A DNA stretch of 62,988 nucleotides, filler included, from Babesia bigemina (lineage: Eukaryota): assembly GCF_000981445.1 (NCBI RefSeq). It is 9 parts of 9 records of this genome, joined end to end, with 100 filler letters (N's around TTAATTAATTAA, not from the genome) between each part and the next. Parts side by side here need not be neighbours in the genome. Positions count along the whole stretch, not along the records: positions 7,892 to 18,863 come from NW_012237255.1; 8 more parts are not named here. One strand, given 5' to 3'. The notes beneath the pieces are model-generated. The model worked only from the letters and a program-made list of their open reading frames with translations. It did not search any database and was not told where the DNA came from. The position numbers and the translations under genes are program-made. This document shows, piece by piece, positions 1 to 51,335 of the stretch; the stretch's first letter is position 1, and the number at the start of each line of letters is the position of its first letter.

Positions 1-1
1 A

Positions 2-3000
2 AAGGCGCAGGAAGTTCATGATGCGTTGCAAAGTGTTGTCGTCAAGAGAGTTTACGGAATTCAACAGGATACTGCGTCAATTGCAGAGGCTAATAAAACA
101 CTTACCATCGAAGTTCAGAATTTAGACAAGTGGAAAGATGCCGCAGGGAAAGTGATTAAGATGGCGGAAGACAGGTGTGAGGAGATACTTAAGAGGGTTG
201 ACATAAATCATAAGGATAATGAAGGAGGAAAGAAAGGCCCCGTGATCTTACAGGAAGCTTCAAAGTTGAAGGATCACGGTAAAAATCTTTTGACTGCTGC
301 CAAAGATGCTAAGCAGAAAGTTGAGCAGAGAGTCAAGGATGCCTTGGACGCTGTGAAGGCCATGGACTCCGATCTCAGGAAGGATTTGTTTGACGTTAAG
401 GGAAAGATCAAGGAAGGGATTACTAAAGTTATTAACGAATTAAAAGTTGGTGATTTGGGTGAGGAAGTGCAAAAGGATTTGAAGAAATTGAGGGAGAAGA
501 TTGTTAAGCTTAGTGAAAACAATAAGGCCGAAGGTCTTGTAAGAGGGCAGTTGAAAGCTCTTGATCAGGAAACTCAGAATGTTAAGCAGAGGATTAACAA
601 AATTAAGAGTGAGACGGATAAGCAGCTTGAGGATAAATTTAGGACGAAGATCAAGGAGCCGCTTGACGTTAAAGTCAAAGCAGTCGAAGAAGCGATTGCG
701 AAGGTTTACGAGAGATTTAATTCACAAGACGGTAGTGTATCATCGGAGAATAAAAAGAAACTTCAAAAGATTTTCGAGCATATTAGAGGACAGGTTGCAG
801 ATATTAAGGGGATGAAAGGTGGTAAAACTGGTCTGGATGGGATTGTCGCAAACGTAAACGGTCTTTATGACGCATTTGTTGACAGCAACAACAGCGGGGT
901 TGACGATAGAGTTGACGGATGGCTTGGAAATATTTTGGGGATCAATGAGAATCAGCGAGGGACACAGACTGATGGGATGAAGGCTGTGACGTCTTGGATT
1001 AATGTGTATAATGGCAATGCTAGGAAGCTTGAAGACGCTTTGAAAATTGTTAAGGATCAAATTAAGAACGCGCTTAGCATCCAAATTAAAGCAGGTCAGA
1101 GGCAGATAACACGAGCAGACACAGAAGATAACATTGTCAAAAATCTTACGAAGGTCAAAGAGGCTTGCCGAGCATTTGCCGATGAACTTGATAAGCAGCT
1201 GACGAAAGAAGGAATTGAACAATTTGTGAAACCAATAGTCGAGGGCGTTCAACGTTTGTCAGGAGGGCATACTCGGTCGAGTGGTAATGCCGAACATCTC
1301 AAAACCGCCATTAGAGCCGCACTCATTGCACTCTGTAGTTGCGTCAGGCAGGTGGCCGCGGAAGTACAGTTCTTAGGCATAAGCATGTTTGGCGAAAAGA
1401 TAGACGCTATAAAGCAGACTGCTGATGGACTTCACACGAATCTTACCCATGCGACTAAATCCACCGAATCCAGTGATGCAAATCCCGACCCTGGCACAGC
1501 CCAAGCCGTGGACAAGGCGATTGACCAAGTGAGGGAGGGTGTTAAGGGGCTTGACGGTAAATTGAATGAAGTCAAACAGTCCGTTGTAGATGCAGTCAAA
1601 GGCCTTGACGAGGCTGTCACCGAGTACGACACCAAAGCTAGGCAGCAAGTCAAGGATGCGGCCAAGGGGGCGATTGACAAAGCGGCTAACGTGATTAGTA
1701 CTCAGAGTGATGAAAGTAAAATTGACTTGCAGAAAACGATGCCGAATTTCAGTCGCGAGCACAATGAAATACAAACTCAGCTTCCAAATAACCTCCGAGC
1801 ATTACTTGATCTGCACATTGGGAGCGATGACACAAGTGACGGTAAAAAAGACCAAGTAAAGCTGTCGAGAGATTTCAAAAAATATGATGATCATGTAAGC
1901 ATTGGCTCTCTAACGGACTACGTGTATGGACGACTCTCGCTAGCTATTGAGCAGGTTAGAGACGAGGGGCTGACTGAGATTGATGAGCTTATTGGTAAGA
2001 GAAGTGGCGTCGGCCCAGCAATCACAGAGGATGCATTCACCGGTGCGTTCGGCAAAATTGAGAAAGAGCTTAACTACATCACGAAATTGGTCTCTGACAA
2101 TGGAAGAGGTTTCCTGGGTGAAGGTTGATTCATAGACCAAAAAGGAGTCAAGACGCTGTTGGGTGCTCTAAACAAAGCGCTCGGTGATGGAAAGTTGGAT
2201 GAGGCTGACAAAGGCTTGGATCACATTAAGAAGGAAATCGAACTTCTGCAAACAGGGAAGTTTGACCCCAATTCCAAGAAAATTTATGAAGCCGTAGAAG
2301 TAATTAGGAAGGAGATTGAAGTGCTTAAGAAGAAGTTGAAGAGTTCAGATAACAATGATGTCATCATCAGATTGGAATATTTAAAAAATGATGGGCTTGG
2401 CGTCGAAAAATGGAACGGCAACGGTGGTAGTCCAGTAGATGGTCTCAAGAAAATCGAGGGTGAGCTTAGAAAACAAAATGGAGAATTAGGTACACAACCT
2501 GATATAATTCGCAGCGCTATAAACAAAATTCAGAGTGAACTTAAGAAGATAGGATACAGGTTGAATGATGAACTAGCATATGACGACGTAGTGGACAGGT
2601 TGCTGCGGTTGGAAATGCATATCGGGAAGGATGACCCTAGAAATGGCAACCTTCAGCAAATTGACGACGATATTAGTAAGCTGCGAGTAAACCAATTTGG
2701 TAAGAACACCGATAAAATTGATCAGTCCTGCAAAGCAATAAAAACAGAACTCAGAATGCTTCACTACCTTTTGCAAAATGGCAAAGATAATGACGTCATC
2801 GAAACGTTGAAAGATTTAATGGGCGCCGGATTCGGGCCTGGTGAGTGGCAAAAATATGACAACGAAAAGGGTCATGAGGCAATTGAAAAGGAACTACAAA
2901 GTCAACTGAAATCGTTGACCGGCCCACCCAAACAAATCGATGCAGGCATCCACCTCATTACCACTGTGCTTGAAGAGCTTAGAAAAAAGTTAAAAAGCGA

Positions 3001-6000
3001 GTCTGGAAGTCCTAATAATAGTGTGATAAGAACACTAGAAGATTTGCAAAAGAATGGGCTTGGTGGTGAGACAATGTCTTGGAATGGTAAAGATGGTCTC
3101 GGCAAAATTAAGCAGGACCTTCAAGAAAAAAATTGGCAGCTGGCGGCGGCAAGCAAAACCATTGAGGACGCAACCACGAATGTACTGGAGCAAACGAATA
3201 CTGTGCTTAAAAGTGCCAAACAGAGGTTGAGTCATGATCTCGTACCGTACGACAACATAGTGGCAAATATGCAGCAACTGCAGAAGATGATTGGGAAGGG
3301 AGATGATAAGGACGGTAATCTTCAAGCAATTCAAAAAGTGATTAATGAACTGCAAGAACAACAATTCCATCGGAAATCCAACACAATTGCGCAAGCAAAG
3401 AATATGATCGACGCAGAACTTAAAAGGCTTAAAAGTGAATTGCACAACGATGTTACCAAGCCGTTGAATAGATTGATGAAGGATGGGTTTGGCATCGGTG
3501 AAAAGTGGAATGGCCAGCATGCCAAGGGCTTCGACACTATCAATCATCATCTCCAACGTCAACAAGAAACGTTGTCACAACAACCCAAAAACATACAGGG
3601 CGGTGTCGAACTGATTGCCAATGAGCTTCAGAGTGTTCGAGGTAATCTCCAAGGTAAGGACAGCGACGATCCCAAAAACAGAGGCGTGATCCGTAATTTA
3701 CAATTCATGACAAAGCAAATCGGCAATAATGACGATGAAGGCCTTAAGAAAATAAAAAGTGACATGCAGTCCCTCAAGAACGACCAGGGCAAAGGGATCA
3801 CTGACAATTTAGATCAGCTCTCCAGAGATATTCAACACGCTGCTGCATACGCCGATTGGCACGTAACTCAGCTGGACAATCCACATATCGACGGCAAACT
3901 CAAAGGCATACAAGATGGTCTCACCAACCTCCAACTCACCGACCTGGCCGAAGCCATCACCATGTGCGACAATTTCCTTTGGGACGCCGACGAGATAGAG
4001 AAAAACACCATCGCCGCCCTTTGGAAGCACGCCGACGATGAGGTGGGCGATGCCATCAAGGACCTCACCAAGGAGGCCCGTGGGCTGTACGTGGACTCGG
4101 TGAGGGAAGCGTTGGAATTGTTTGCCAAGAAAGTCAACGAGGATTTAAACCTGCTGCCACATGAGATAAACAGGGATAGGTACGTGGGCTATAAAGGGTT
4201 CATGAATGCGGTGGAAGGTGAGAACGGCGTTAATATCAATAAGCTCAAGTGCGTGAAAAGCAGAGAACTGAAACTACTATCTTTCGTCTTCGGCGATTTC
4301 TTCGGTGAAGTCAACGAGTACGTCGAAGGGGAGCTCACCAGGCTGCACGATGAGCAGAACAAAGAGAAGAATCCCTCTTTGCCAGCAACCGAAGAGACAT
4401 ACACGCCTAAGCTTAATGATGTATATGAAGCGCTCACCGAGTTACTCGCCTACCTAAGGGACTATGATAGCGATGCCTACAAACTCACCGAGCTGCTTGA
4501 GAGGCTGACCAGGGCGCTGGGTAATTTGGCACCCTCCGACTTCAAGCACCCGTCCACTCCGCTGCTGGACACCGTCGCTCGCGGCCTTTCCAAATTTGCC
4601 GGTGAGTTCGGCAACACGTATATCTCCGCCTACTCCGGTCAGCGGTTCAGGGAGGAGCACTCCTACAAGTACGCCAAAGTTTTACTGAGCATGGTACCTA
4701 TGATGTACAAAGGGCTTACCAAGTTGGCGACGAAGTGTGCTGGTGACTGGAAACATCTTCATATTACTGAGTGCACCTCTGACGACAAGGACAACGCACT
4801 TGGCAACTACCTCACCAGGTGCGGCTACAGGGTGTCCACTTCCGGGAGGGAACAGGACGGCGAGTTGAACCACATGTTTACTGGCGCTGGAATTCACGAG
4901 CTACTTGTCACGCCAATTGAGGATGTGAGCATCGAGATGATGATTGGTGGTGAGCCAATCAAAAATGGAATGAACTTTGTTACCATCATATCGCTGCTCT
5001 ACAACACCCTATGCCACTACTTCCAGGTCTGCCACATCCCTGTTCCCCCTGAATCACGATACGCCTGCACAGTCAAGGACATGCTGTCGTGGCTCTCCGG
5101 GCTGCAGTATACACGTGTTGCAGACAAGCTGTCTGACCACTGCAAGGCGTTGCTCAACCGCCGGTGCCACGATGGCGACACCCCCCCACAGGGACGATCC
5201 CATCATGGCCATGTGCATTGGTGAGCTAACATATACCATTGCAACAACATGTTCACACTCCACCGCCCTGATCACCGCCATCCAGGGCAACGGCCAGGGC
5301 TTTGACCTCGCAGCCTACCCATATTCGGTTAACTTCTCCAACAACCGCGCCAGGCTCCATTACCCCGATGACCCAGACGCACTGCTTGAGATGCTTCGTG
5401 ATATAGTATGCCGTCTTTGTAGAGAGCTCTACTTCCTGTACTCCCAGTGCTGCTGCAGCACCGCCCGGGTCAAGGGGTGGCGAGAGTGCAGATACGGCAG
5501 GCAGGTGCAGTCACACAACTGGCAGTGTTATACATTTGACACGCAATACGCTACCAGTGCTACAACAACTACTGCTGCAACTACTACAACTACCACTTCC
5601 TCCACCACCATTCACGGCTGCCCTCCCACCTCGCCGCTCCAGTCGTTCCTCTCCGACAGCTGCCACGGACTCTTGCCGCATACCCTCACCGCTGCTGACG
5701 GGACCATCGAGTGTGCCAACTGCGCTGCCAACCAACCTGGCCAGCAGTGCCTCACTCTACTCGGCTTCTGGGATATAGGCTTTGCCGCGTCCATACGTGG
5801 CACCGGCTGGGATCTTGCTAAGCGCATCGGCGATATGTGCCGTGATGCCGATTCATGCCTGTTCGTGCTCTGTCGGACTCTGTTCTTGCTTTGCCCCGCC
5901 GCACCCTCATCACTCGCCGACGTGTTTGCATTGTATGCTCAGGTGTTACGGCAGTGGGACTCTCATGACCATGTTAAGCACCGTGGCGGCACGTACACCG

Positions 6001-6843
6001 ATGCCTCCGATTTCATATCGCACCTCAACACTGACGGCATCGACAGCCTCTTCCCACTGTGGACGCAGCTCCACGGCAGCTATGAAAATCACAAACTCAC
6101 CAGTGTCATTGCATCTCTCGCCGGCCATAACCATGAAAGCCACGATGCGCTGTCTAGCCTTTTCAACAACTCCACTTGCAAGTCACCCAGTGGCTGCGCT
6201 CCTTACCTCCAACCCCTAGGACTCCACGCCCACCACACCTACCCGCAGAAGCACGCTGGGCTATACATCACGTGGATAGTGTACCTGGCGTGGCAGTTAT
6301 GGGATTTGCTATGCGAACTACTGCAGGCGCTGGACAACATCGACTGCACGGCCTCCGGGTGCGCCACATGCCCCTGCCAACCCGGCATACACGGTGGGAA
6401 GGACACCTGCCACTGCCCTTCCATCGTCCAGTGCGCCGGAACCCTGCCCACCCTCTACCGCTACGGATTCACGTATCGCAACGCAGATCTCCTGGTCACT
6501 GACAACTATGCCATGTGCTGCGGAGACCTCAACGCACAACTCGAACAGGCACTGCACTCCGGCCACTTCACCGAATTGTTTCATCAAATTGACCAACTCA
6601 TCTGGCACATCCGGATGCCGTTCTTCTACTTCTTCATCGCACTGTGGTCTCTCGTGGCGCTGTACATACTCCACACTTTCCTCTACCGCATGGACATCTT
6701 ACGCATCAGGTCACATCTCCTGACCACCAAGGCCTCTCACCTCATCGACGTCAAGGCGCTACTCGTCCTTAGCAGAAAAATGCTCACTTTACCACGCCAG
6801 TTACTTCATTGACGACACCAAGCAGCTACTCAACTTAAAATAA
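2..6843 (+). pseudogene. ves1-like variant erythrocyte surface antigen (large coiled-coil, Cys-rich C-terminal domain, TM, ...HLIDVKALL tail type); 5'-truncated by the window edge and interrupted
   Basis: ORFs 26-2128 and 2159-5224 share a frame and are separated only by TGA 2126-2128. A frameshift in the C7 run at 5181-5187 joins ORF 4977-6812. A probable third shift near 6790 would restore a ...YHASYFIDD tail ending at 6843. Family motifs shared with paralogs here: MLSWLSGL, GWRECRYG, SPLQSFL, TM then RMDILRIRSHL. Confidence 0.8.
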
Positions 6844-7891: not shown

Positions 7892-8646
7892 TAGACCTAA
7901 ACCCTAAAAACCCTAAAACCCTAAACCCTAGAACCCTAGGCCCTAGAACCCTAAAACCCTAAAGCCTAAAACCCTAAACCCTTAAACCCTAAAACCCTAA
8001 AACCCTAGACCGTAAAACCCTAAAACCCTAGACCCTAAACCCTAAACCCTAAAAGCCGAAACCCGAAAAACCCTAAACCCTAAAACCGTAAAACGCTAAA
8101 CCCGAAGACCCTAAAAACCCTAAAACCCTAAAAACCCTAAAAACCTAAAAACCCGAAACCGAAAACCCTAGAAACCCGAGAACCCTAAAACCCTAAAAGC
8201 CTAAAACCCTAAAACCCTAAAAAACCCTAAACCCTAAAACGCTAGAAAACCCTAAACCCTAAAACCCTAAAACCCTAAACCCTAAACCTAAACCCTAAAA
8301 CCCTAAAACCCTAAGACCCTGAAAACCCTAAGAACCCTAAACGCTAAAAACCCTAAACCCTAAAAACCCTAAACCCTAAAACCCTAAGACCCTAAGACCC
8401 TAAAACCCTAAAAACCCTAGACCCTAAACCCTAAAACCCTAAACCCTAAAACCCAAAACCCTAAAACCCTAAAACCCTAAAACCCTAAACCCTAAACCCT
8501 AAACCCTAAAACCCCTAAACCCTAAACCAAACCCTAAACCCTAAAAAACCCTAAAACCCTAAAAACCCTAAACCCTAAAACCCTAAAACCCTAAGAACCT
8601 AAAACCCTAAGAACCTAAGAACCTAAAAAAAACCTAAAAACCTAAG
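7892..8646 (+). repeat. Telomeric repeat array (CCCTAAA, many CCCTAAAA/CCCTAGA variants); chromosome left end
   Basis: About 750 bp of C-rich CCCTA(A)n repeats at the contig start, degenerating inward. Matches the plant-type TTTAGGG telomere of apicomplexans. Confidence 0.93.
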
Positions 8647-8689
8647 CCCAGTGACCTGGCCTCCTAACCCTAGAATTCTAGGACCTCAT

Positions 8690-9590
8690 CTACTCATCTT
8701 CCAGTTTCTGGCCTTAGATAAGCCTTGATTCTAATGTGCCTTGTTATTGCTACTCATCTTATCTTATTCAGCTACTCATCTTATCTTATTCAGCTACTCA
8801 TCTTATCTTATTCAGCTACTCATCTTATCTTATTCAGCTACTCATCTAATCTTATTCAGCTACTCATCTTATCTTATTCAGCTACTCATCTTCCTGTTTC
8901 TGGCCTTAGATAAGCCTAGATTCTCATCTATCATATTCAGCTACTCATCTCATTTATCAGCTACTCATCTTATCTTATTCAGCTACTCATCTTATCTTAT
9001 TCAGCTACTCATCTTCCTGTTTCTGGCCTTAGATAAGCCTTGATTCTAATTTGCCTTGTTATTGCTACTCATCTTATCTTATTCAGCTACTCATCTTATC
9101 TTATTCAGCTACTCATCTTATCTTATTCAGCTACTCATCTCATCTTATTCAGCTACTCATCTTATCTTATTCAGCTACTCATCTTATCTTATTCAGCTAC
9201 TCATCTTATCTTATTCAGCTACTCATCTTATCTTATTCAGCTACTCATCTTATTCAGCTACTCATCTTATTCAGCTACTCATCTTATCTTATTCAGCTAC
9301 TCATCTTATCTTATTCAGCTACTCATCTTATCTTATTCAGCTACTCATCTTATCTTATTCAGCTACTCATCTTATCTTATTCAGCTACGCATCTTATCTT
9401 ATTCAGCTACTCATCTTATCTTATTCAGCTACTCATCTTCCTGTTTCTGGCCTTAGATAAGCCTTGATTCTAATTTGCCTTGTTATTGCTACTCATCTTA
9501 TTCAGCTACTCATCTTATCTTATTCAGCTACTCATCTTCCTGTTTCTGGCCTTAGATAAGCCTTGATTCTAATTTGCCTTGTTATTGTAA
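8690..9590 (+). repeat. Telomere-associated 22-bp satellite (CTACTCATCTTATCTTATTCAG)n punctuated by a ~50-bp spacer
   Basis: Tandem 22-mers. Spacer CTTCCTGTTTCTGGCCTTAGATAAGCCTTGATTCTAATTTGCCTTGTTATTG (or part of it) near 8700, 8890, 9013, 9437 and 9536. Confidence 0.95.
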
Positions 9591-11298
9591 TTTCACTATG
9601 CACGTACAATCACTATGTGCCGCCTAACTCAGCGTACAATTCGCCTACAACTCCACCACCTTAATCACCAAGCCAATCTCCACCCTAATGACTCAACGCT
9701 GCCTAGGTGGGACGGATGGGCTGGCACCGCTAGTACGCACCTTTCCCCGCCACTACCAACGCTATGAGTGCGCTACCCGTGTGCCTAATCAACGCTACTG
9801 TGACGCTACTCAGTGTCTCTATTTCGGCGCTTAACTGCCACGCCTCGCCACCGAACGCAGCCACCGATGTGAACAACACGAAAGCAAAGCACTCAACAAA
9901 TCACTGCACAGCACATTAAACAACGCCTTCACCAACACTATAATCAAATACACAACCAACCAATCAACCAAATCACGAACCAAACACCTCACCAAAGCGC
10001 TACCCAATAGGCCCACCAATGCCCCATGCAGAGCAACTGTCGATGGCCGGACGGAAACCAAGCGCCAAAAACCAAACAGAACTAACGGAACCAAGCCGAA
10101 AAAGCGTTAAAATGACTAACACAAACACATGAATGCTTATTTTTCTCACCATTATGTCATTATGGCTCACATTGTTTTATCGCTACTTAACTCAGTTTTT
10201 TCTGGAGTGTCTCACCACTTACACACCAGCTCACCTAACTTGGATAACTCACGTAACTTAATAAATTGATAATCATGAATAGCTCGACTTAATCTTGCAA
10301 TAGGGGTGACGCAATCCGGGTGCAAAACCGGACGTGCGACACCGGCCTGAAATCAGCGGTGCTGAGATCAGGACAGTCGAGTGGTCGGTTTCCGAGCTCC
10401 GTCGGCCTGAAGAGAATAAGAGCAAAGCATACACATGTATACAAATGCGCACGTAGCATTAGACATAAATATGGTTAATGTAGAACGCTTAAAATATTAA
10501 GAAAACACCTACGCAAGCAAACGGCACCTAACACACTAAGCAATATTAATAAACTAACCAACTATATAAGTAGAGCACGGCAGAGTGGATTCCGGTCGTC
10601 TAGAAAGTCAAAGGGTGGCCTTGTGTCTAGAAAATTGAAAAGGAAAGATTGATGTTTTTAGACACAGTTCACCAGACGCCCAGCCGGCCATCCAAGATGC
10701 CAAAATCGATATATATTATAACGACTACAGCGTCTTGAATTTCGTAACGGCACAGCCAAACGTCTGGGAGAATGCTGGCCAAACATTCTGAACGCGCAGC
10801 ATGCAACAAGGAGTTGCCATCAAAATGCGTGCATGCGGGGACATGCAGCTGTCTGCACTAGGGTGCGATAAGATTACAGGTGCACCGGATGCACAGATTC
10901 CGCGATGTTGTCCAGCGCTAAGCTGTCTTGTAATGTCGCTACCTAATTGTCATTTTGTGAGCTACAGCGTGAGCTATGTGACGTGATCTTTACATGCGTG
11001 TGGAAATACGCGAGGCTCGCGGCCTTGGTCGCTCATTTAATATGCCGATCTACATATGCAGTACATGCATGCAGCTGCACGCGGCTGCGTTTTTGGAGCG
11101 CCGGAATGGGGAGCAGTAGTAGAATATTCCCGATTATTTTCGGGTAGAGCTCTTAGAGCTGCTTCCGCGATACACATCGCTTGTCGACGTCGCAGCGCAC
11201 TCCCTAGCTCCGTTAGAGGCGTCGGGGAGTGATGCGCTGCAATTTCAAACATACCGTGATTTTGTAAGCTCCCTGGTTGTCTCACTATTTGCAGGAAA

Positions 11299-12480
11299 AT
11301 GGCACGCGTCAAGATGATGCGCCAGGCAACCCTGCACGAGTACTGTTCCGTTACAGACGCGCCGCCAGGCGACTCACCGAAATCAGAGAAGCAGCCTCCG
11401 AGGAAACGACCCAAAACAGACGCTACGCAGTGTCAGTTGAAATCACAGACCGCCAACCCTTCGCCCGTGGCGGAGGACGACGACTACGCATGGAGTCCGT
11501 GGCACAGCTACACGGAGGAAGACCCTGAGGCTTCCCTCGACGATGTGCAGCAAGATGCGCTGGAAAAGCAGCAGCCCGTGGAGCTGCAGACACCAACCGC
11601 CCATAAGAATGCGTTGGTGGTGCCAGAGCTGTTTGTAACAGCGCCGCAGCCAGTATGGACGACCATGGAGATGCCACCGGACGTCGGAGACCTGCAGCAG
11701 CATTATACGGCAGACGAAGGAGCGGTTGTACCGACTCCAGCGAACTCACCTACACGCGGAACCCTGTGGGCCAAAGTCGGCAGGATCAAGGACGAGCTTG
11801 CGGACGTCATGGCCAAAAACTACGCGGACCCGTACGACCCGAGACAGACGGCGCGCGAGGAGCGGATTCGGGAGCTGGGATGTGCATACGACGTGGCACT
11901 CGATGACGCCAAATTTCATGACTGGCAGACGGAACGCAGCAGACAAATTCAGATGTCAGCCACCGAGACCTCGCAGACGGCTGAGCCTCAGCGGGACTAC
12001 ATTACCCTGGAGGACATCGACTACCGCAGCCTGGTCAGCGTGCAACGGTTCAACTATCTAGTACCTTCAGAATCGCAAGACGACGGCGGTAGCGGTGAAA
12101 TACAGAACGCTGAGCAGGTACCTCAGAACAGTGAGGCATCGGAGAAGCCGTCTCCGAACGTCGTCCGTCACGTCGTGCACCAGCCGCCAACCGACGAGCG
12201 CGGCAGGTTACTCAGATGGAACACAGATCCGAGGGACGCAATCACGTCACGGTATTTAGGCAATTATTCTCCGGAGCTGCTGCCGTGCTCGTTCTGCGCC
12301 CTGCTGCCTGTATTACCATGGGAACGTCGTTGGAGGAACACACCTGCGAAGTGCAAATGTGCAAAACGGAGATACGTGTCCACGGCGCAGCGCAAACGGC
12401 GCCGCCTTCAATATTTGAAGAGTATGGGCAAAATTCACTGTAGCGCTAAAATAGAGCAGGACACGGGCACAGCCGAGTAG
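11299..12480 (+). CDS. Hypothetical protein, 393 aa; disordered acidic N-terminus, C-terminal CxxC...CxC cluster and basic NLS-like segments
   Basis: Long GC-rich ORF in AT-richer flanks. PRKRPK and RKRRR motifs; PCSFC...KCKC. TTTGCAG just upstream may be a splice acceptor. Confidence 0.7.
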   Translation: MARVKMMRQATLHEYCSVTDAPPGDSPKSEKQPPRKRPKTDATQCQLKSQTANPSPVAEDDDYAWSPWHSYTEEDPEASLDDVQQDALEKQQPVELQTPTAHKNALVVPELFVTAPQPVWTTMEMPPDVGDLQQHYTADEGAVVPTPANSPTRGTLWAKVGRIKDELADVMAKNYADPYDPRQTAREERIRELGCAYDVALDDAKFHDWQTERSRQIQMSATETSQTAEPQRDYITLEDIDYRSLVSVQRFNYLVPSESQDDGGSGEIQNAEQVPQNSEASEKPSPNVVRHVVHQPPTDERGRLLRWNTDPRDAITSRYLGNYSPELLPCSFCALLPVLPWERRWRNTPAKCKCAKRRYVSTAQRKRRRLQYLKSMGKIHCSAKIEQDTGTAE

Positions 12481-13799
12481 TGAGTAGCGGCAAACGCTGA
12501 CTGGCTGTCACACCTGGCTGCGATAAATCGATAGACATTTGTTTTGCTAAATTCTGGCAACCTTGTATATTTGTATGATGTTTTGAAATATTCTGTCACC
12601 TCGTCTCTTCAGCCCTTACGTTTTGGGGCCAAAAATCAGCTATCCATGGCCTAGCGTCATAAGGCAACAGGCATCCTTCCATATAGAGCTGCGCGTGAGC
12701 AATTTACATGGCCCGGTTGCACAAAATTTTCAAAACGATGTTCTAAGTCACATTCAACAGTGTAGTGCAATTGTGATGCGAGTTAGCGGTCAAAATACTG
12801 ACGCTTACCTGTGGCTCACCGAATACCTGGTGGGTGGTAACTACGTACGCTGAATAGTCACCTTATACAGCGTCGAAGTGTAGTCACAATTGCGGAATAC
12901 GCTTGTGTTTATGCATAGCGTTTTTCCAGTAACACCAGCAGAAAATTGCAGCCTCACACCGCACAACGTACAGCAGTGCTCACCTAGGATAATTACGGTG
13001 ACACGAGGGCGTAATATCGGAACACGTCGTAGACATTATAGTTTACTTTACACATCAATATACCACATTTGTTCGCAGAAAAACTCTACCTACAAGCGAA
13101 TTTGACCACAGTCTACTGCGTGCATCACCTTTATGTAGTAGGGGCAGTACGTTATCCTGTATCGTTGTTGTTTCGTGCAATATGAACGTGATGGTATGTG
13201 ATGCAAGTACTATACTACGACGTAAACATAACAGTCATACACAGGTATTAGTGGCAACCACGCGGCGAGGCATGTATCACACGGCAGGGCAGCGAAGCTG
13301 CCCACATTAGAGTAGGTGTACTACATACAAATACTTTGATTTTATATGATATATAACAAGTACGTCGTTACATTAGCACGTCTGTGACACGTGATTTCAG
13401 TATAGCTTACATCGGCTGCATGTCTTTTCACGGGACAGTGCAGCTGACGTGAAGTTTTCTATATCTGGCGGCAACAACTACGAATGTAAATCATCGTGTT
13501 TCATATCAACATGGAGTGTGGTATATAGTACAATAAGCAATTTCAACCCAACTTCACGACTTACCTATTTCAGTGCAGTGGCTGTGGGTACCGTGACACA
13601 TGCTACGACATCCGCAGCCATAAACCGCGTTTATACGTGGTCACCCGTGATTCCTTAAATGTGATGAATTACCTACATAATCATCAATTTAAAAGCTACC
13701 TGATCCACTTGTTTATAAATTTGATAGTACTGTAAACCGCCCGATTTCGGTTGCTGTGTTAGGTGACAGGGCTGTTGCGTTTCCATGGGCAACAACGGT

Positions 13800-16700
13800 G
13801 GTATCCACCGTGCATTCATATAACGCTTAAATTAGCAAAAATAGACAAATGTCTACTGTTAGCAACTAAATAAAACGTTAAATTAAGTTATCTCATCTTA
13901 TAGTGTGCTATGTGGCTACGTGCCTAGGGCCGGTTTTCGTGTTTGCGGGGCTAACGCCTCACGCTGAAACCGGTTGCGGGATCCACGCCGGTCCATTGCC
14001 GGACGTCACTGGTGCCATCCATGCGGGCATCCATCCAGTTTGGGCTTGAGGGTCTTCTACGGAATCGTAGTCTTCTTTCGGCTTCATATCCCTCATCACT
14101 ATTTTATGTGTTTCTTGGATCACTACCCTTTGTATGTGGGCTTCCATGCGATCCGATATGCCCAGGTCCCGTCTATACTTGCTGTGTTCTTTCGTCACTA
14201 TTCCCTCCCACGTCATAACGTAGGGGATAACCCTGATCTTGGTGTGCTGGTTAAACTGTCGCGCCTTGAGGTCCTCAATAAGGTCTTCATACTTCTGCTT
14301 CTTGAACTTCTCCGTATCCACTAGGTTGTCTTGATTGGTGATTCCTATCTCCACGATGGTTATGGTGTTCCTCCGCCGATCCGCCAGGATGATGTCTGGC
14401 CTGTTGTATTCCTTAGTCTTCTGAGTCTTGACCGTCTTGTCGTACGCGATCCATCCGTATTTTCCATGTACTTCACTCTCGATCTTGTGGGCGTCTATCT
14501 TCTCCTTGGGTAGTCCTATTTGCCTCCCGAGTACTGAGTGGACCCGTTTTGCTACCTCGTTGTGCCTCTTCGTATATTCTAGGTGTAGTAGTTTCTGGCA
14601 CTTCGTCGCGAGGTGATCCACGTTCTTGCCGTTGTTGCATCTTGTGCATTTCTTGGACGAAGACATCCATTGCAGATTCCTATCCTGGACTTCCGCTACG
14701 TTCGCTTCTTCTTCCGGAGTGAGTATTCCACACGTCAGGTACAAGGACGACGCCTCAATGTCCAGCTTGGGGTCCTCACGCTTGGCATACAGAACCTTAT
14801 GAGTTGATTTTACGTGCATTCTGTTGTACAGCCATTTGTTTTGGGCCACCCTGAGGTCCCTGAGGCTCTTGTCCGTAGTGTCCTCCATTCCGAATTCCAT
14901 TCCATATCTTCCTTCCAGGTGCATCTTGATGTGAGATATGTGCGCGTATGTGTCGCGAAAATGCTGCATGATCGCAGCTCTCCTGGTTGACGTCACCTCG
15001 TCTGCTGAAAGCGTCAACCACAGTCGTAGCAGCATGGCTTCCGCTCTAAATACCATGCTGTGGAGCCCTCTCCCCATCTCTTTCCGGGGGAGGTAGAGCC
15101 TCTGTGTGTTCGCCCACTTCTTGTGTCCGTGCTTCGCGTTAATTATTCTCCGTACTGCCAGGTCGATCTTGTCGAAATGCGTGATGTCCATAGGGATCAC
15201 GCCGATGTAGTAGTTGATGACGCTGAGGGCGTACTGGTTGATGGCCATCGAGAGGTTTTTCCCCGACAGCTTTGACGCAGCCAGTAGCTCCGTTCTCCTG
15301 CATATCTCCTGTAGTATTATGTCGAACATTCCGTCGCTTGTCAGTGAGTTTGAAGTCTCTGTGACTCCCAAGTACTTGTACGTTTCCGGGCCTTCCATCT
15401 GCTTGGCGATGCTGGCGCACGCCTCCGTGTTGGTTGCCGACTTGTCGCGGTTGATCCTGAGTCCTATGTCGTTGAAGAACTTCTCCACTTCTCGGCCCAT
15501 TCCTCTCATCGTACTTTCCTCGTGGGCGAAGAACTTGAGGTCGTCAATATAGAGAAAGTGGTTTGTGGCGAATATCCTGCCGCCGGTCACGCTTAACTCC
15601 ACCTTGGGGAAGATGCGAGTCAGGTGCCTGCTCAGCGGGTCCAAGCACAGCACGAAGAGAAGGGGCGATAGGCTGTCGCCTTGGAGAATGCCCCTCTCCA
15701 CTTTCTTGTGCATGATTGTGTTCTTGTTCCACCGTATCTCTATATTCCACCTCTTGATCGTCTGCTTGATGAAGTTTGATAACCACCCTGGTAGGTTAAG
15801 GTTGTCGATAACCCTTGCCAGGTACGCGTGGTCGATTGAGTCGTACGCCTTCATGACGTCGACCCACGTTGCAAGTAACTTCCCCTTGTGCTTCTCGTTG
15901 AGCGCGATGTTCGCTAACGCGTGCTCCTTTGCACCCTGTACGTTGCTCCTCGTGCCCATCTGGTTCTCGGACCGTAGTCCCCTGCCATCGACTTCTCGCT
16001 TAAGCGTCTCCGTTGCACAGCGGGTAGTTAGCTTGTATAGGTTGGACATGCATGTGATAGGCCTGTACTGTGCGGCGGACTTTGGTTTCTTGTTCTTCGG
16101 TAGTAGGTACGTGATCCCACAGTAGAACCAGTCGTCCTGCACTTTGCCTTGCTGGCATGCCTCCTCTACTAGCCTGTAAATGACTCTGTGAAGGGACGTG
16201 AGCCATTTAATGTAGTAGTTGTAGATCCCATCCGCACCGGGCGACTTCCAGTCTCGCAATTTCTTGACGATCGTGACGAATTCCTCGTATGTGGGAAAGC
16301 CTGCCTTGTTCTCTGCCGGTGGTCTTTCGACCAGATATCCTTCACCGTTGTGCGGTGCGTTTGGCTTCACCCACATTTGCGCCCAGTACTCTATCATCAT
16401 CCCCTCGTTTATCGCCGACTCGTCCGCGTCCTGCTTGTTCTCCAGTGTCCTGTAGAAGTGTCCCGTGTAGAGCTCGAACATGCGGTTGTCGTTGTACAAC
16501 TCCTTCTTGAACTTGGCGTTCTTGAGTTTGTCCTGCTCCTTTTGGAGCTCCTCTTGAGTCCTGCTGATCACGTATGACAGTTCCTGCGGCTTGTCCGCGA
16601 TCATGTTGTACTTGTCCATTTGGCGATAAACGCGTTTCCTATCCTCCTTCTCCAGGGGGACCTTCTGCTTGTATTTCAGAAGTAATGCTCCTATCTCCTC

Positions 16701-18192
16701 CAGCTCCTTGATCCTCCTCTCAGCTGCCTCCTTCTTTCCCGAGGACGACGATGGTTTTGCGCTGTACTTGTCGTAGCAGTCCTGTGCCGTCTGATACAAG
16801 ACGGCTAGCATCCCCATGTCAGTGACTGGGTTGTGCTTCACGTAGTTGTGGACCACTAGATCCAGCGACCTTATCGCCGTGAAGTCGAGGGAGTCCATGG
16901 TGTGTCTTTTGTTCTTTACTGTCCTAATCACACCAGGCTCCCTCAACCTCTGTGCCATGATCCGGTCGAAATCCTCCTGCAGGGCGTTGTATGAGTCGAC
17001 GTCGTGCAGCGATGCTATTTCTCCAACGTCCGTCGGTTGGCTCCGCGCTGCTTTGGCGACTACCTGTCTTGCCATCTGCTCCACCTCCTTGTGGGTCTTG
17101 TGGAATTCGAAATGCTCGTTGGCATATTCCGCGAGGACTTTCCATCCTCCTCGTGGCATCCTCTGATACTTCGTCACTACTGCCTTGTAGACGTCCGGTA
17201 CCCAATGACACCATGGTCCATCGATCTGACGCATGACACAGTGCAGGAACTGTAACTTGGCATTCAGCCTAGCGTAGTTCGGCGGCATTTGTGGCGTGTT
17301 CCCGGCCCGTTCAGCCTGCGGGGCGTGCCCTTCGGGTGCCCTCGGCAACGCAGCCGTCTCAGTGAGCGCCACCTCACTGGCGGTGCCCGGTGCTATACTG
17401 TTGTTTGATTCTCTCACAGGCCCGACTTGCTCAGGTTCCTCTTCGTCCACGTCCATAAAGTCATCCGACGATATGGAATACACGGTCGGAGAGCGGCAGC
17501 CACCGTTTCCGACAACCTCCCCTGCCGGTGGCTGCAGGGTAGACAGTGTCTGCACACACACGGGTGCGCGTTCCGAGGAACTCGGCCCGGCGTTGCAAAC
17601 CACGACAGGCGGCGTTTGAGCCGTGTTTCCTGTCTTTTTGGCCTTCCGGTTGTTACCCTTTTGGCCCTGGGGACCGCCGTTCCGCGCTTTGTTTCCAGCG
17701 CCCTTCACAGCCGGAGTGGTTCCGGGCTGGTGTCGTTTCCGGCTTGCCTGCGGGATTGGCCGGCTTTCGCCGCCACGGCCGGCCCCCTTCGAATTTGTGG
17801 GTTTACCTTTAGGGCCCTGAACACCGCTTTGTACCGGTTTTCTGGATTCATGCCGCCTTTCGGGTTGCCGACACTCTCGGCGCCCCACGGTGGCAAGCGG
17901 AGCATCGATGTCCATCCCATCGGGGACGTCCACGTCAATAACCATGAGGTCTCCGTCCTCATCGATTTGACTGCTCAGCTGCACTTCTTGTGAGCTCTCC
18001 ATTGGTACCTTGTTCGTCTATCCAGCGCGCCTGTGTGGCCGCCTTTCGCCTCGCGATGTTGCCGCTTTAATTCCGCACTTTTGGCCTTCAATACACCCCC
18101 CAGTGACATCGGAAAAATTTCCTTTCTGTGATAAACCCGAGAAAACACGTTTCTCAAAGTTTCCCCCAAAATCACAGAAGATTCCAACTCCC
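13800..18192 (-). mobile_element. Non-LTR retrotransposon, RLE (restriction-like endonuclease) group, R4/Dong-like, single ORF; 3' boundary uncertain
   Basis: Intact RT-CCHC-PD(D/E)xK ORF. The 5' boundary is set by the abrupt end of similarity to the ves leader at 18193 (compare 51110-51335). No LTRs, integrase or APE domain seen. Confidence 0.9.
13959..18002 (-). CDS. Retrotransposon polyprotein, 1347 aa: basic/disordered N-terminus, Myb-like helix, reverse transcriptase, CCHC knuckle, REL endonuclease
   Basis: WKSPGADGI, YRPITC, DVMKAYDSI, GILQGDSLSPLLF (~15660-15690), LYIDD (15540-15554), YKYLG, C-X2-C-X7-H-X4-C (14598-14648), KRHN, RPDII...IVEIGI, KKQKY. No stops or frameshifts. Confidence 0.96.
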   Translation of the reverse strand: MESSQEVQLSSQIDEDGDLMVIDVDVPDGMDIDAPLATVGRRECRQPERRHESRKPVQSGVQGPKGKPTNSKGAGRGGESRPIPQASRKRHQPGTTPAVKGAGNKARNGGPQGQKGNNRKAKKTGNTAQTPPVVVCNAGPSSSERAPVCVQTLSTLQPPAGEVVGNGGCRSPTVYSISSDDFMDVDEEEPEQVGPVRESNNSIAPGTASEVALTETAALPRAPEGHAPQAERAGNTPQMPPNYARLNAKLQFLHCVMRQIDGPWCHWVPDVYKAVVTKYQRMPRGGWKVLAEYANEHFEFHKTHKEVEQMARQVVAKAARSQPTDVGEIASLHDVDSYNALQEDFDRIMAQRLREPGVIRTVKNKRHTMDSLDFTAIRSLDLVVHNYVKHNPVTDMGMLAVLYQTAQDCYDKYSAKPSSSSGKKEAAERRIKELEEIGALLLKYKQKVPLEKEDRKRVYRQMDKYNMIADKPQELSYVISRTQEELQKEQDKLKNAKFKKELYNDNRMFELYTGHFYRTLENKQDADESAINEGMMIEYWAQMWVKPNAPHNGEGYLVERPPAENKAGFPTYEEFVTIVKKLRDWKSPGADGIYNYYIKWLTSLHRVIYRLVEEACQQGKVQDDWFYCGITYLLPKNKKPKSAAQYRPITCMSNLYKLTTRCATETLKREVDGRGLRSENQMGTRSNVQGAKEHALANIALNEKHKGKLLATWVDVMKAYDSIDHAYLARVIDNLNLPGWLSNFIKQTIKRWNIEIRWNKNTIMHKKVERGILQGDSLSPLLFVLCLDPLSRHLTRIFPKVELSVTGGRIFATNHFLYIDDLKFFAHEESTMRGMGREVEKFFNDIGLRINRDKSATNTEACASIAKQMEGPETYKYLGVTETSNSLTSDGMFDIILQEICRRTELLAASKLSGKNLSMAINQYALSVINYYIGVIPMDITHFDKIDLAVRRIINAKHGHKKWANTQRLYLPRKEMGRGLHSMVFRAEAMLLRLWLTLSADEVTSTRRAAIMQHFRDTYAHISHIKMHLEGRYGMEFGMEDTTDKSLRDLRVAQNKWLYNRMHVKSTHKVLYAKREDPKLDIEASSLYLTCGILTPEEEANVAEVQDRNLQWMSSSKKCTRCNNGKNVDHLATKCQKLLHLEYTKRHNEVAKRVHSVLGRQIGLPKEKIDAHKIESEVHGKYGWIAYDKTVKTQKTKEYNRPDIILADRRRNTITIVEIGITNQDNLVDTEKFKKQKYEDLIEDLKARQFNQHTKIRVIPYVMTWEGIVTKEHSKYRRDLGISDRMEAHIQRVVIQETHKIVMRDMKPKEDYDSVEDPQAQTGWMPAWMAPVTSGNGPAWIPQPVSA

Positions 18193-18415
18193 GTAGCATC
18201 ATCAGTAAGAGAATGGTCAGTATCAACAAGTTATTATAAAGGTTTATGGAGGTCATAGCGTTAATAAGACAAGGTAATTCGGCGGATTTGGAGTTAGGGT
18301 GAACATGGTCAGGGCAGTGGCAAGAGGTGGAAGAGGGGAAGTGAAGGGTGACAAGGGACAAGTTATTATAAAAGTTTATGGAGGTCATAGCGGTATTATG
18401 GCGAGGTAATTCAAG
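18193..18415 (-). other. Orphan ves1-like gene leader (duplicated MTSIN...CHCPDH form) fused to the retrotransposon 5' end
   Basis: Colinear with 51110-51335 upstream of the 1798-aa ves gene. Encodes MTSINFYNNLSLVTLHFPSSTSCHCPDHV, like the N-terminus at 37899. Confidence 0.88.
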
Positions 18416-18863
18416 GGATGTAGAGTGGATAAAGGGGCGATGTAGAGTGGGTAAAGGGGCGATGTAGAGTGGGTTAGGGAGCGATGTAGAGTGGGTTAGG
18501 GAGCGATGTAAGGTGGGTAAAGGGGCGATGTGGAGTGGGTAAAGGAGCGATGTAGAGTGGGTAAAGGGGCGATGTAGAGTGGGTTAGGGAGCGATGTAGA
18601 GTGGATAAAGGAGCGATGTAGAGTGGGTAAAGGGGCGATGTAGAGTGGGTAAGGTAGCGATGTAGAGTGGGTTAGGGAGCGATGTAGAGTGGATAAAGGA
18701 GCGATGTGGAGTGGATAAGGGGCGATGTAGAGTGGATAAAGGAGCGATGTAGAGTGGGTAAAGGAGCGATGTAGAGTGGGTTAGGGAGCGATGTAGAGTG
18801 GGTAAAGGGGCGATGTAGAGTGGGTAAAGGGGCGATGTAGAGTGGGTTAAGGGGCGATGTAGA
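18416..18863 (+). repeat. 22-bp G-rich satellite (GGGGCGATGTAGAGTGGGTTAA consensus)
   Basis: About 20 tandem variant units running into the gap. Confidence 0.97.
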
Positions 18864-35829: not shown

Positions 35830-36851
35830 GTGACCTAGCACCTGACCAACGTGTTGACCAATGCCATGACCAGAGAGCTGACCAAAGTGCTGACTAAGGT
35901 GCTGACCAAGGTGCTGACCAATGCTATGACCAAGGTGCTGACCAACGTGCTGACCAAGGTGCTGACCAATGCCACGACCAGAGTGGTGACCAAAGTGGTG
36001 ACCAATGTGCTGACCAATGCCATGACCAGAGTGCTGACCAAGGTGCTGACCAATGCCATGACCAAGGTGCTGACCAAGGTGCTGACCAATGCCATGACCA
36101 AGGTGCTGACCAAGGTGCTGACCAATGCCACGACCAGAGTGGTGACCAGAGAGCTGACCAAAGTGCTGACTAAGGTGCTGACCAAGGTGCTGACCAAGGT
36201 GCTGACCACAGTGGTGACCAATGCCATGACCAGAGTGTTGACCAAGGTGCTGAACAATGCCATGACCAAGGTGCTGCCCAAGGTGCTGACCAAAGTGCTG
36301 ACCAACGTGTTGACCAACGTGCTGACCAACGTGCTGACCTATGTGCTGACCAACCACCTGACCAAGTTAGTGGTCACGGCAGCGATGACATGGTCACGGC
36401 AGCGGTGACATGGTAACGGCAGCGATGACATGGTCACGGCAGCGATGACATTGTCACGGCAGCGATGACATTGTCACGGCAGCGATGACATTGTCACGGC
36501 AGCGATGACATGGTAACGGCAGCGATGACATGGACACGGCAGCGATGACATGGACACAAGTGGTGATTATTATCCACTCTACATCGCCCCTTAACCCACT
36601 CCACATCGCCCCTTAACCCACTCTACATCGCTCCTTAACCTCCCTACATCGCTCCCTAACCCACTCCACATCGCCCCTTTACCCACTCTACATCGCTCCC
36701 TAACCCACTCCACATCGCCCTTTACCCACTCTACATCGCTCCCTAACCCACTCTACATCGCTTCTTTACCCACTCCACATCGCCCCTTAACCCACCCCTA
36801 AATCCCCCCTTAACCACTCTAATTGCCCCTTTATCACTCCACATCGCCCCT
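35830..36851 (+). repeat. Ordered satellite cassette: 12-mer (GTGCTGACCAAG) 35830-36366, 20-mer (GGCAGCGATGACATGGTCAC) 36371-36557, 22-mer C-rich 36572-36851
   Basis: Direct inspection of tandem units. Confidence 0.95.
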
Positions 36852-36999
36852 NNNNNNNNNNNNNNNNNNNNNNNNNNNNNNNNNNNNNNNNNNNNTTAAT
36901 TAATTAANNNNNNNNNNNNNNNNNNNNNNNNNNNNNNNNNNNNNNNNNNNNCACTCAATAATCGTCGTATGTGATTGCTTAGTTAGCATGTGGGTTATG

Positions 37000-37870
37000 T
37001 GCTGACCTAGTGGCTGACCTACCACCTGACCAATGCCATGACCAAAGTGCTGACCGAGGTGCTGACCAAAGTGGTGACCAAGGTGGTGACCTATGTGCTG
37101 ACCAATGCCATGACCAACGTGTTGACCAATGTGCTGACCAATGTGGTGACCAAGGTGCTGACCAATGTGCTGACCAAGTTGATGGTCACGGCAGCGATGA
37201 CAGTGGTCACGGCAGCGATGTCTTGGTCACGGCAGCGATGTCTTGGTCACGGCAGCGATGACATGGTCAAGGCAGCGGTGACATGGTTACGGCAGCGGTG
37301 ACATGGTTACAGCAGCGATGTCTTGGTCACTGCAGCGATGACATGGACACAGCAGCGATGACATGGTCACTGCAGCGATGACATGGTCACGGCAGCGATG
37401 ACAGTGGTGACCAAGTTGATGACCTAAGTAGTGATTATTATCCACTCTACATCGCCCCTTAACCACCTTACATCGCCCCTTTACCCACTCCTCATCGCTC
37501 CCTAACCCACTCCTCATCGCTCCTTAGTCCACTCTACATCGCTCCTTAGTCCACTCTACATCGCTCCTCTATCCACTCTACATCGCCCCTTAACCCACTC
37601 TACATCGCCCCTTTATCCACCTTCCATCGCTCCTTTATCCACTCTACATCGCTCCTTTATCCACTCTACATCGCCCCTTTACCCACTCTACATCGCTCCC
37701 TAATCCACTCTACATCGCTCCCTAACCCACTCTACATCGCTCCTTAACCCACTCTACATCGCTCCCTAACCCACTCTACATCGCTCCTTTACCCACTCTA
37801 CATCGCCCCTTTACCCACTCCACATCGCTCCTTTATCCACTCTACATCACCCCTTTACCCACGCTACATC
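37000..37870 (+). repeat. Complete satellite cassette upstream of a ves gene: 12-mer 37000-37178, 20-mer 37183-37402, 22-mer 37440-37870
   Basis: Same order and orientation as the other copies; ends about 30 bp before the ves ATG. Confidence 0.95.
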
Positions 37871-44652: not shown

Positions 44653-44752
44653 NNNNNNNNNNNNNNNNNNNNNNNNNNNNNNNNNNNNNNNNNNNNTTAA
44701 TTAATTAANNNNNNNNNNNNNNNNNNNNNNNNNNNNNNNNNNNNNNNNNNNN

Positions 44753-51099: not shown

Positions 51100-51335
51100 G
51101 GCTCTTTTAGTAGCATCATCATAACGACGGGAGTGGGAAGTAACAAGTTATGGTCATAATTAATGGAGGTCATAGCGTTAATATGGCGAAGTAATTCGAA
51201 GGATTTGGAGTTAGGATGAACATGATGGGACTTGGCAGTGGCAAGAGGTGGAGGAAGGGAAGTGAAGGGTGACAAGGCACAAGTTATTAGGATGGTTTAT
51301 AGAGGTAATAGCGGTATTATGGCGAGGTGATTCGA

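What the first reader, a model, noticed from the sequence alone, without database searches (positions are those of the whole stretch)
13959..18002. Intact RLE-type non-LTR retrotransposon in a piroplasm genome
Seen: one uninterrupted 1347-aa ORF with complete RT motifs (QGDSLSP, YIDD, YLG), a CCHC knuckle and an RHN/PD...E/KxxKY restriction-like endonuclease. Known: this single-ORF architecture defines R2-group elements. Lack of N-terminal zinc fingers fits the R4/Dong type, many of which are site-specific, and Plasmodium, Theileria and Babesia bovis are generally described as lacking transposons. Inference: a potentially active retroelement in Babesia. It shares a contig with Babesia-type satellite, a ves leader and a telomere, which argues against simple contamination.
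Basis: partly seen in the sequence, partly recalled or inferred. Interest (0 to 1): 0.92.

Follow-up and report, generated by a model that had tools for sequence, protein, structure and literature searches.

The report
Young Babesia retrotransposon with microsporidian kin
This cattle blood parasite carries an intact jumping gene in many near-identical copies, which likely still copies itself through RNA into scattered sites, and its closest non-Babesia relatives occur mostly in microsporidian fungi, from whose lineage it was likely picked up.

Summary
Window 18002-13959 (-) is one 1347-aa ORF with intact RT, CCHC and RLE motifs, and its model best matches R2 structures. The element spans about 13877-18192. 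Records labelled Babesia bigemina hold 8 full-length gene records that differ by 0-2 residues. Public contigs show another copy with an 11-bp target-site duplication, 5'-truncated copies and at least 6 unrelated 3' flanks. It is therefore a real, recently mobile, not strictly site-specific RLE-type LINE, and neither a contaminant nor a domesticated gene. Its existence is not new: LINE-like elements in B. bigemina, B. ovata, B. divergens and Theileria equi were reported in 2022 (PMC9141347), without clade or origin. What I did not find in print is the origin. Babesia and T. equi elements fall inside a strongly supported radiation dominated by microsporidian LINEs (43-52% identity, against 25-30% to the insect-type outgroup), which points to cross-supergroup transfer. 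AU tests were mixed (p 0.028 and 0.075), and the same lineage also sits in a mite. The window copy has mismatched flanks (ves1 start, subtelomere) and no duplication, so it was recombined or misassembled. R4/Dong membership could not be tested.

The parts
13877..18192 (-). Full-length non-LTR retrotransposon, about 4.31 kb
   Evidence: 5' end: similarity to a ves1 paralog stops at 18193, an independent contig leaves the window at 18193, and the B. ovata copy matches from 18181. 3' end: loose ends at 13877-13903 in 6 of the 6 runs laid.
18003..18192 (-). 5' UTR, 190 nt, starting with a G run
   Evidence: A homolog is kept in B. ovata (68% as translated). No Rfam family; folding z -0.28.
13959..18002 (-). 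Single ORF, 1347 aa
   Evidence: the identical protein is recorded on 3 contigs, the longest 2.82 Mb.
17013..17285 (-). Conserved four-helix N-terminal domain (aa 240-330, W267 and RMPRGGW), a likely nucleic-acid-binding domain; Myb-like identity not shown
   Evidence: W267 in 67 of 73 filled rows; pLDDT about 90 in the full model; no fold or Pfam match on its own.
15360..16085 (-). Reverse transcriptase core (aa 640-881)
   Evidence: Pfam RVT_1 E 2.6e-30; catalytic D715, D820, D821 conserved.
14598..14648 (-). CCHC zinc knuckle (aa 1119-1135)
14289..14567 (-). Restriction-like endonuclease motifs RHN, PD, E, KxxKY (aa 1146-1238)
   Evidence: aligns to the R2 RLE; the model aligns to R2 through its C-terminus.
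13877..13958 (-). Short 3' UTR ending in an AT-rich 13-nt unit, which is doubled in another copy; no poly(A)
   Evidence: folding not above shuffles (z -0.94).
18193..18416 (-). 5' segment of a ves1-type gene, cut off by the element in the same orientation
   Evidence: 81% identical to the ves1 5' region at 51110-51341, with the match ending at the junction.
18417..18863 (.). 22-bp satellite that flanks ves genes on other contigs of the window
12481..13876 (.). 3' flank: unique non-coding subtelomeric DNA, not ves
   Evidence: No match elsewhere in the window; held without differences in run X1.
11299..12480 (+). 393-aa orphan ORF, a host gene outside the element
   Evidence: No Pfam hit, no Atlas hit; about 90% conserved in X2, X4, X5.
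7892..9587 (+). Telomeric array (7899-8628) and 22-bp subtelomeric satellite (8749-9587) at the contig end

Best explanation
This is an intact single-ORF retrotransposon with reverse transcriptase and restriction-like endonuclease motifs, present in many near-identical copies in Babesia bigemina; it likely moves by target-primed reverse transcription into varied sites, and its lineage was likely acquired horizontally from a microsporidia-associated LINE radiation. Inferred mechanism, by analogy with R2 (PMC10499050): the protein binds its own RNA 3' end, the endonuclease nicks host DNA, and the nick primes cDNA synthesis. Staggered second-strand cleavage leaves a short duplication (11 bp seen once), and early termination leaves 5'-truncated copies. 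Insertions survive mainly in dispensable DNA such as ves genes and subtelomeres (inferred). The window copy's unmatched flanks likely come from recombination between two copies or from an assembly join across them. Odds: genuine recently mobile LINE 0.93; no strict target site 0.8; horizontal origin in the microsporidia-associated lineage 0.6.
For: Shown: intact motifs. A confident model (pLDDT 92) has R2 proteins as its top 7 Foldseek hits (E 1e-27 to 7e-24, ahead of L1 at 7e-20) and VIA Z 31.6 over 758 residues, rmsd 5.3, to R2Tg. Eight full-length 1347-aa gene records (4 distinct sequences) differ by 0-2 aa, and older variants differ by 10-35 aa. PMC9141347 Table 2 gives 133,787 nt of LINE-like DNA in this species. 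An 11-bp sequence is shared by a 5' flank (X1) and a 3' flank (X1, X3) directly at the element ends. There are 11 internal loose ends of the 5'-truncation type; of the 6 listed for the whole element, 5 lie within 670 nt of the 3' end. At least 6 unrelated single-contig 3' flanks, counting the window's own. A B. ovata copy sits cleanly inside a ves1 gene. Trees: the Babesia clade is 100/100, nested in a 100/99 clade with Vairimorpha, Nucleospora, Astathelohania, Hamiltosporidium and Pancytospora, inside a 99/98 clade with Enteropsectra, with Dictyocoela outside (same nesting). Identity is 43-45% (B. bigemina) and 44-52% (T. equi) to the nearest microsporidian or metagenome rows, against 25-30% to the outgroup. 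No other alveolate label appears among the 120 hits listed in each. AU p 0.028 against placing piroplasms outside the radiation.
Against: No activity assay and no raw reads. No listed contig bridges the window copy's 5' junction, and the 3' junction overlap (30 letters, X1 record 3) falls just short of the tool's 31-letter rule. The TSD rests on one copy whose two flanks come from separate contigs. Some unplaced-contig records may be assembly duplicates. VIA Z for L1 (30.4) ties with R2. The second AU test did not reject an outside position (p 0.0745), and piroplasm monophyly was not rejected (p 0.27). Piroplasm branches are long, and many relatives are unnamed metagenome proteins. The lineage is not purely microsporidian: a mite-like contig (L002), Octopus and Polistes labels, and Mikrocytos. 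GC3 0.69 is host-like, so composition gives no sign of recent transfer.
Confidence: 0.8

Rival explanations
1. A genuine LINE inherited vertically from an early eukaryote or alveolate ancestor and lost in most apicomplexans; its nesting among microsporidian elements is an artefact of sparse sampling and long branches.
For: AU p 0.0745 in the better-sampled test; long piroplasm stems of 0.76-0.99; host-like GC3; PMC9141347 treats presence in a common ancestor of Babesia and Theileria as one of two equally parsimonious scenarios; Mikrocytos has a deep member.
Against: Two nested strongly supported nodes in 4 of 4 trees. Identity of 43-52% across supergroups exceeds the 25-30% to the outgroup, and T. 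equi is closer to microsporidian or metagenome rows (48%) than to B. bigemina (40%). No other alveolate label among the listed hits.
Confidence: 0.2
2. Horizontal origin, but by way of an arthropod (tick or mite) genome or another shared host, or in the reverse direction, so that microsporidia are fellow recipients and not the donor.
For: A member of the lineage lies in a mite-like, intron- and microsatellite-rich contig and is 99.6-100% identical to a Dermatophagoides-labelled protein; others carry Octopus and Polistes labels.
Against: The mite elements form a separate branch with Enteropsectra rows, away from Babesia. No tick label among the listed hits. Microsporidian labels span 9 genera including the deepest branches.
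Confidence: 0.17
3. A site-specific R4/Dong-like element that targets a conserved motif in ves genes or their satellites.
For: The window copy interrupts a ves1 start, and 4 fused gene models join the element to ves-like sequence (P0130, P0416 by tblastn, P0010 by Pfam, P0128 by eye). Most RLE clades are target-specific (PMC4640811).
Against: Insertion points in ves differ (gene start against mid-gene). At least 6 unrelated 3' flanks. Fused models are ascertained only for sense insertions in genes. A loose A/T-rich preference is not excluded.
Confidence: 0.1
4. Contamination of the assembly by a microsporidian, or a domesticated single-copy RT gene.
For: The closest non-piroplasm relatives are microsporidian; the window copy's junctions are not bridged by independent contigs.
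Against: Copies lie on 0.8-4 Mb contigs of B. bigemina, B. ovata, B. caballi, B. divergens and T. equi from separate projects. The Babesia copies form one clade. GC3 is host-like. The family is multicopy, with truncated and frameshifted copies.
Confidence: 0.02

Closest known systems
LINE-like TEs of B. bigemina, B. ovata, B. divergens and T. equi (Rodriguez and Makalowski 2022, PMC9141347)
   Same: Same species and almost certainly the same family: 0.97% of the B. bigemina genome; a 4426-nt T. equi model.
   Different: In the sections and supplement rows I read, the paper gives no element ends, TSD, endonuclease type, age or protein phylogeny. It classes the Babesia models as Unknown/LINE without a Dfam hit, and weighs ancestral presence against two gains without naming a donor.
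R2 retrotransposons (R2Bm, R2Tg; PDB 8gh6, 9dou, 9nl2, 9nl3)
   Same: Single ORF with RT, thumb, linker, CCHC and C-terminal RLE in the same order; best structural matches.
   Different: Only 14-17% structural identity; no N-terminal zinc finger; no rDNA target; no ribozyme found by Rfam; dispersed insertions.
R4/Dong clade (recalled: RLE, no N-terminal zinc finger, often microsatellite or rDNA targets, short TSDs)
   Same: RLE plus CCHC, no N-terminal zinc finger, an 11-bp TSD and an AT-rich tail; the next-nearest group (25-30%) includes beetle- and moth-labelled proteins.
   Different: No named R4 or Dong sequence was available, so clade membership was not tested. The element belongs to a lineage separated from that insect-type group by a long 100/100 branch, and no fixed target was seen.
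Microsporidian non-LTR elements (Vairimorpha, Nosema, Hamiltosporidium, Nucleospora, Pancytospora, Astathelohania, Enteropsectra, Dictyocoela, Amphiamblys)
   Same: Same lineage, 43-52% identity to the nearest rows over RT-RLE, with a shared N-terminal W...RMPRGGW domain.
   Different: The Babesia protein has a low-complexity N-terminus about 200 aa longer (1347 against about 1145 aa) and host-like codon use. PMC4202319 counts microsporidian LINE families and reports transfers with animals; a find for apicomplex, Babesia and Theileria in it gave 0 hits.

Membership tests
Non-LTR retrotransposon (LINE) | Non-LTR-type RT with intact catalytic aspartates | tested here: met
Non-LTR retrotransposon (LINE) | Dispersed copies with TSD, variable tail and 5' truncations; no LTRs | tested here: met
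   A TSD was seen for one other copy; the window copy has none. No terminal repeat of the element in self-BLAST.
Non-LTR retrotransposon (LINE) | TPRT activity | not testable with these tools
   Needs a biochemical or cell assay.
RLE-type (R2 group) architecture | Single ORF with a C-terminal CCHC followed by a PD-(D/E)xK-type RLE | tested here: met
R2 clade proper | One to three N-terminal zinc fingers | tested here: not met
   No CxxC before aa 1119; feature as given in PMC7650587.
R2 clade proper | Myb domain before the RT | tested here: inconclusive
   A conserved helical domain is present; the single-sequence model is weak (pLDDT 61) and has no Foldseek hit.
R2 clade proper | Insertion in 28S rDNA | tested here: not met
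   Flanks are ves and subtelomeric DNA; no rRNA by Rfam in 9500-18860.
R4/Dong clade | Groups with named R4 or Dong elements in an RT tree | not testable with these tools
   No named R4, Dong, NeSL, HERO or CRE sequence came from any call.
R4/Dong clade | No N-terminal zinc finger (feature recalled) | tested here: met
Site-specific RLE elements | One conserved target sequence at the junctions | tested here: not met
   At least 6 unrelated 3' flanks; not all loose ends were listed.
Microsporidia-associated LINE lineage (unnamed) | Nested placement with strong support | tested here: met
Microsporidia-associated LINE lineage (unnamed) | Outside placement rejected by AU test | tested here: inconclusive
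   p 0.028 and p 0.0745.

The most novel reading that the evidence does not exclude
A microsporidian LINE crossed eukaryotic supergroups into piroplasms, once or twice (the Babesia ancestor, and T. equi separately), probably inside a co-infected tick. It is still jumping in B. bigemina and T. equi, and it supplies both the reverse transcriptase and the dispersed 4.3-kb homology that move and reshuffle ves antigen genes and subtelomeres, the window's ves-to-telomere join being one such event.
Probability: 0.3. Interest if true: 0.82.

Novelty: new member of a known kind. Interest (0 to 1): 0.6.

Why it matters
Apicomplexans are nearly free of transposons, and no active element has been characterised in piroplasms as far as my searches reach. 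A young, intact family gives a direct test of mobility in a cultured apicomplexan and a source of strain markers. Jackson et al. (PMC4066756, passages) report frequent ves transposition and cite the idea that ves1-alpha arose by retrotranscription, while the text has no mention of a reverse transcriptase; this element is a candidate enzyme and a candidate recombination substrate. A fungus-lineage-to-alveolate transfer of a non-LTR element would be a rare cross-supergroup event between two intracellular parasites. Microsporidia do occur in ticks, at low prevalence (PMC8760655 abstract). A compact RLE protein without strict targeting is also a useful contrast to R2 for insertion-tool work.

Tried and rejected
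No whole genome is held for this window, so copies were counted from protein records, not from DNA. TSD search at the window copy: nothing above 5-mers. Rfam over 9500-18860: one weak snoRNA hit, E 0.28, taken as chance. UTR folding was not above shuffles. N-terminal domain alone: no Foldseek hit at E<=0.001 and only Pfam E 0.2; the wide VIA search never ran because the queue was full. Pfam does not detect the RLE. Two independent transfers: suggested (T. equi with Pancytospora, 92/74), but piroplasm monophyly was not rejected, so this is not claimed. Expression: no RNA holder listed. X4 and X6 are only guessed to be RNA, and their cover is not used as evidence. Contig depth peaks at the 3' end, but depth is no copy number, so only loose ends are counted. 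The metagenome scan gave no relative above 45% among the 80 loci kept of 385. The ESM Atlas gave only RVT_1 clusters. Our own findings index was empty. GC3 values for two ORFs and one were read on the wrong strand and dropped. Finds in the B. ovata, T. equi and B. bigemina transcriptome papers gave no relevant passage; the Dong paper is not held. Trees used subsets: 122, 50, 23 and 29 rows of about 480 fetched proteins, chosen by me for length and label.
Full report
OBSERVATION. The window is nine contigs joined by an artificial linker. The element lies on the contig 7892-18863. From left to right it holds a telomeric array, a 22-bp subtelomeric satellite, a 393-aa orphan ORF, 1.4 kb of unique DNA, the element, a ves1 5' segment and the 22-bp satellite that flanks ves genes elsewhere in the window. 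The ORF at 18002-13959 (-) is 1347 aa without interruption. Pfam finds RVT_1 at aa 640-881. An AlphaFold model of aa 240-1320 (pLDDT 92) has R2 retrotransposon proteins as its seven best Foldseek hits, ahead of L1 ORF2p. VIA aligns it to R2Tg at Z 31.6 over 758 residues, rmsd 5.3, through the C-terminal endonuclease, although L1 ties on Z at 30.4. There is no N-terminal zinc finger. A conserved four-helix domain at aa 240-330 may bind nucleic acid; I could not show that it is Myb-like.

HOST AND COPY NUMBER. The protein's 90% cluster consists of records labelled Babesia bigemina. The exact sequence is on 3 contigs, one of 2.82 Mb. A variant with one change has 3 GenBank accessions on 2 contigs, and two more full-length records differ by 2 residues. 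That makes 8 full-length gene records with 0-2 differences. Of the 13 other B. bigemina records compared, the rest are older variants (10-38 differences), truncated, frameshifted or fused models. Some unplaced-contig records could be assembly duplicates. T. equi has its own family of 13 records, 5 of them 1312-1314 aa, with 98.7-99.4% identity among the full-length ones. B. ovata, B. caballi (one cluster of 29 records) and B. divergens carry mostly broken copies on Mb-size contigs. Contamination and domestication are therefore very unlikely.

ENDS AND FOOTPRINTS OF TPRT. The 5' end is at 18192. Similarity to a ves1 paralog stops exactly at 18193, a contig of run X1 leaves the window there into a different flank, and a B. 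ovata gene model contains a homolog of the 5' UTR, then the whole ORF at 75% identity, with ves1 sequence on both sides that resumes where it stopped. The 3' end lies at 13877-13903. In X1 and X3 a 3' flank begins, after a doubled 13-nt AT-rich tail unit, with the same 11 bases that end the X1 5' flank, which reads as a target-site duplication; the two flanks are on separate contigs, so their pairing is inferred. Eleven distinct loose ends lie inside the element on the 5' side. Of the 6 listed when the whole element was laid, 5 are within 670 nt of the 3' end, as expected for truncated TPRT products. One search covered only the 3' 800 bases, and 90 and 15 further loose-end rows were not shown. 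Six single-contig 3' flanks, counting the window's own, are unrelated to each other, and three further rows are mixed consensuses, so a strict target site is not supported. Several flanks start A/T-rich, so a loose preference remains possible.

THE WINDOW COPY IS ODD. Its 5' flank is the start of a ves1 gene, its 3' flank is unique subtelomeric DNA, and there is no duplication. With copies that are 99.9% alike over 4.3 kb, either ectopic recombination between two copies or an assembly join would give this. I cannot tell them apart and put it at about even odds.

MECHANISM. Shown: domains, copy number, ends, one TSD, truncations. Inferred from R2 (PMC10499050, passages): the RLE nicks DNA, the RT extends the nick on the element's RNA, and second-strand cleavage gives the duplication. 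With no zinc finger to read an upstream motif, targeting would be loose. Survival mainly in ves genes and subtelomeres would reflect selection. Four gene models fuse the element to ves-like sequence, but such models are ascertained only for sense insertions. Present-day activity is likely from the near-identity of copies, but it is untested.

ORIGIN. The closest non-piroplasm relatives are microsporidian-labelled proteins of nine genera and unnamed metagenome proteins. No other alveolate label appears among the 120 hits listed per search. In 4 of 4 trees the Babesia elements form one fully supported clade, T. equi is a separate long branch, and both lie inside two nested supported clades of this radiation. 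T. equi is 48% identical to the nearest such proteins and 40% to B. bigemina. Forcing piroplasms outside the radiation cost 21.9 log units (AU p 0.028, 23 rows) and 20.2 (p 0.0745, 29 rows); the constraint was named after the first tree had been seen. Piroplasm monophyly was not rejected (p 0.27). The lineage is not purely microsporidian. One member sits in a mite-like contig beside an intron-split ankyrin gene and matches a Dermatophagoides-labelled protein. Others carry Octopus, Polistes and Mikrocytos labels, and I did not check their genomic context. This shows that the lineage moves between hosts, but it leaves the donor open. GC3 of 0.69 matches host ORFs (0.67-0.82), and divergence among Babesia species (78% to B. 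ovata, 52-58% to B. caballi and B. divergens) fits long residence. I put a horizontal origin in this lineage at 0.6.

WHAT IS KNOWN. PMC9141347 (abstract, sections 3.2, 3.3, discussion, tables, supplement rows by search) reports LINE-like TEs in B. bigemina (133,787 nt), B. ovata, B. divergens and T. equi, absent from B. bovis and other Theileria, with no clade tree or donor. PMC10463595 (passages) notes expanded reverse transcriptase genes in B. caballi and B. ovata. PMC4066756 (passages) reports ves transposition and cites a retrotranscription idea. PMC4202319 and PMC7313128 (passages) cover microsporidian TEs and transfers with animals. PMC4640811, PMC7650587 and PMC5753468 (passages) gave clade definitions. 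PMC8760655 was read as abstract only. PMC5660447, PMC3505731, PMC10975891 and PMC4053351 were searched by term only. Eight searches showed no paper linking piroplasm LINEs to microsporidia. Subscription journals, Repbase, Dfam and the supplements of the genome papers were not seen and may bear on this. R4/Dong features are recalled, and membership could not be tested.

VERDICT. A real, young RLE-type LINE: a new member of a known kind, in a family already noticed but, in what I read, not characterised. Interest 0.6, carried by recent mobility, the link to ves loci and the likely cross-supergroup origin.

Noticed in passing
window 11299-12480 (+): 393-aa subtelomeric orphan ORF with a Cys-rich, basic C-terminus; no Pfam or Atlas hit; about 90% conserved in three other runs.
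   Followed up: partly
window 7899-8628 and 8749-9587: Telomeric array mixing 7- and 8-nt units (TRF consensus period 8), followed by a 22-bp subtelomeric satellite unrelated to the ves satellite.
   Followed up: no
window 10407-10571: A contig of run X4 skips 163 bases here, which may be an intron of an unannotated short transcript in the subtelomere.
   Followed up: no
window 1-6812: ves1-type gene broken by a stop at 2128 and a frame change near 5200; its closest relative seen is the ves part of a gene model fused to the element.
   Followed up: no
window 35842-37870, 43665-45525, 51334-52196, 56670-59912: Ordered arrays of 12-, 20- and 22-bp satellites flank ves genes on most contigs and are candidate recombination anchors.
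   Followed up: no
L002 4626-8132: A LINE of the same lineage in a mite-like contig, matching a Dermatophagoides-labelled protein, with one internal stop; its 5' end lies at a TTA run. A likely separate transfer into a mite.
   Followed up: partly
protein P0093: A Mikrocytos mackini transcript encodes a deep-branching member of the lineage, a third group of intracellular parasites.
   Followed up: no
proteins P0141-P0144, P0047, P0136: Theileria equi holds its own young family with five 1312-1314-aa records about 99% identical, likely also recently mobile.
   Followed up: partly
proteins P0045, P0164, P0165, P0201, P0294: Members labelled as bacterial MAG proteins (Riesia, Bacilli, Turicibacter, Paraclostridium, Clostridium) on 1.5-4 kb contigs are likely misbinned eukaryotic DNA.
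   Followed up: no
window 13898-13987: Runs X4 and X6 hold contigs with only the last 86-90 bases of the element at high depth, a very short truncated copy, possibly inside a transcript.
   Followed up: no
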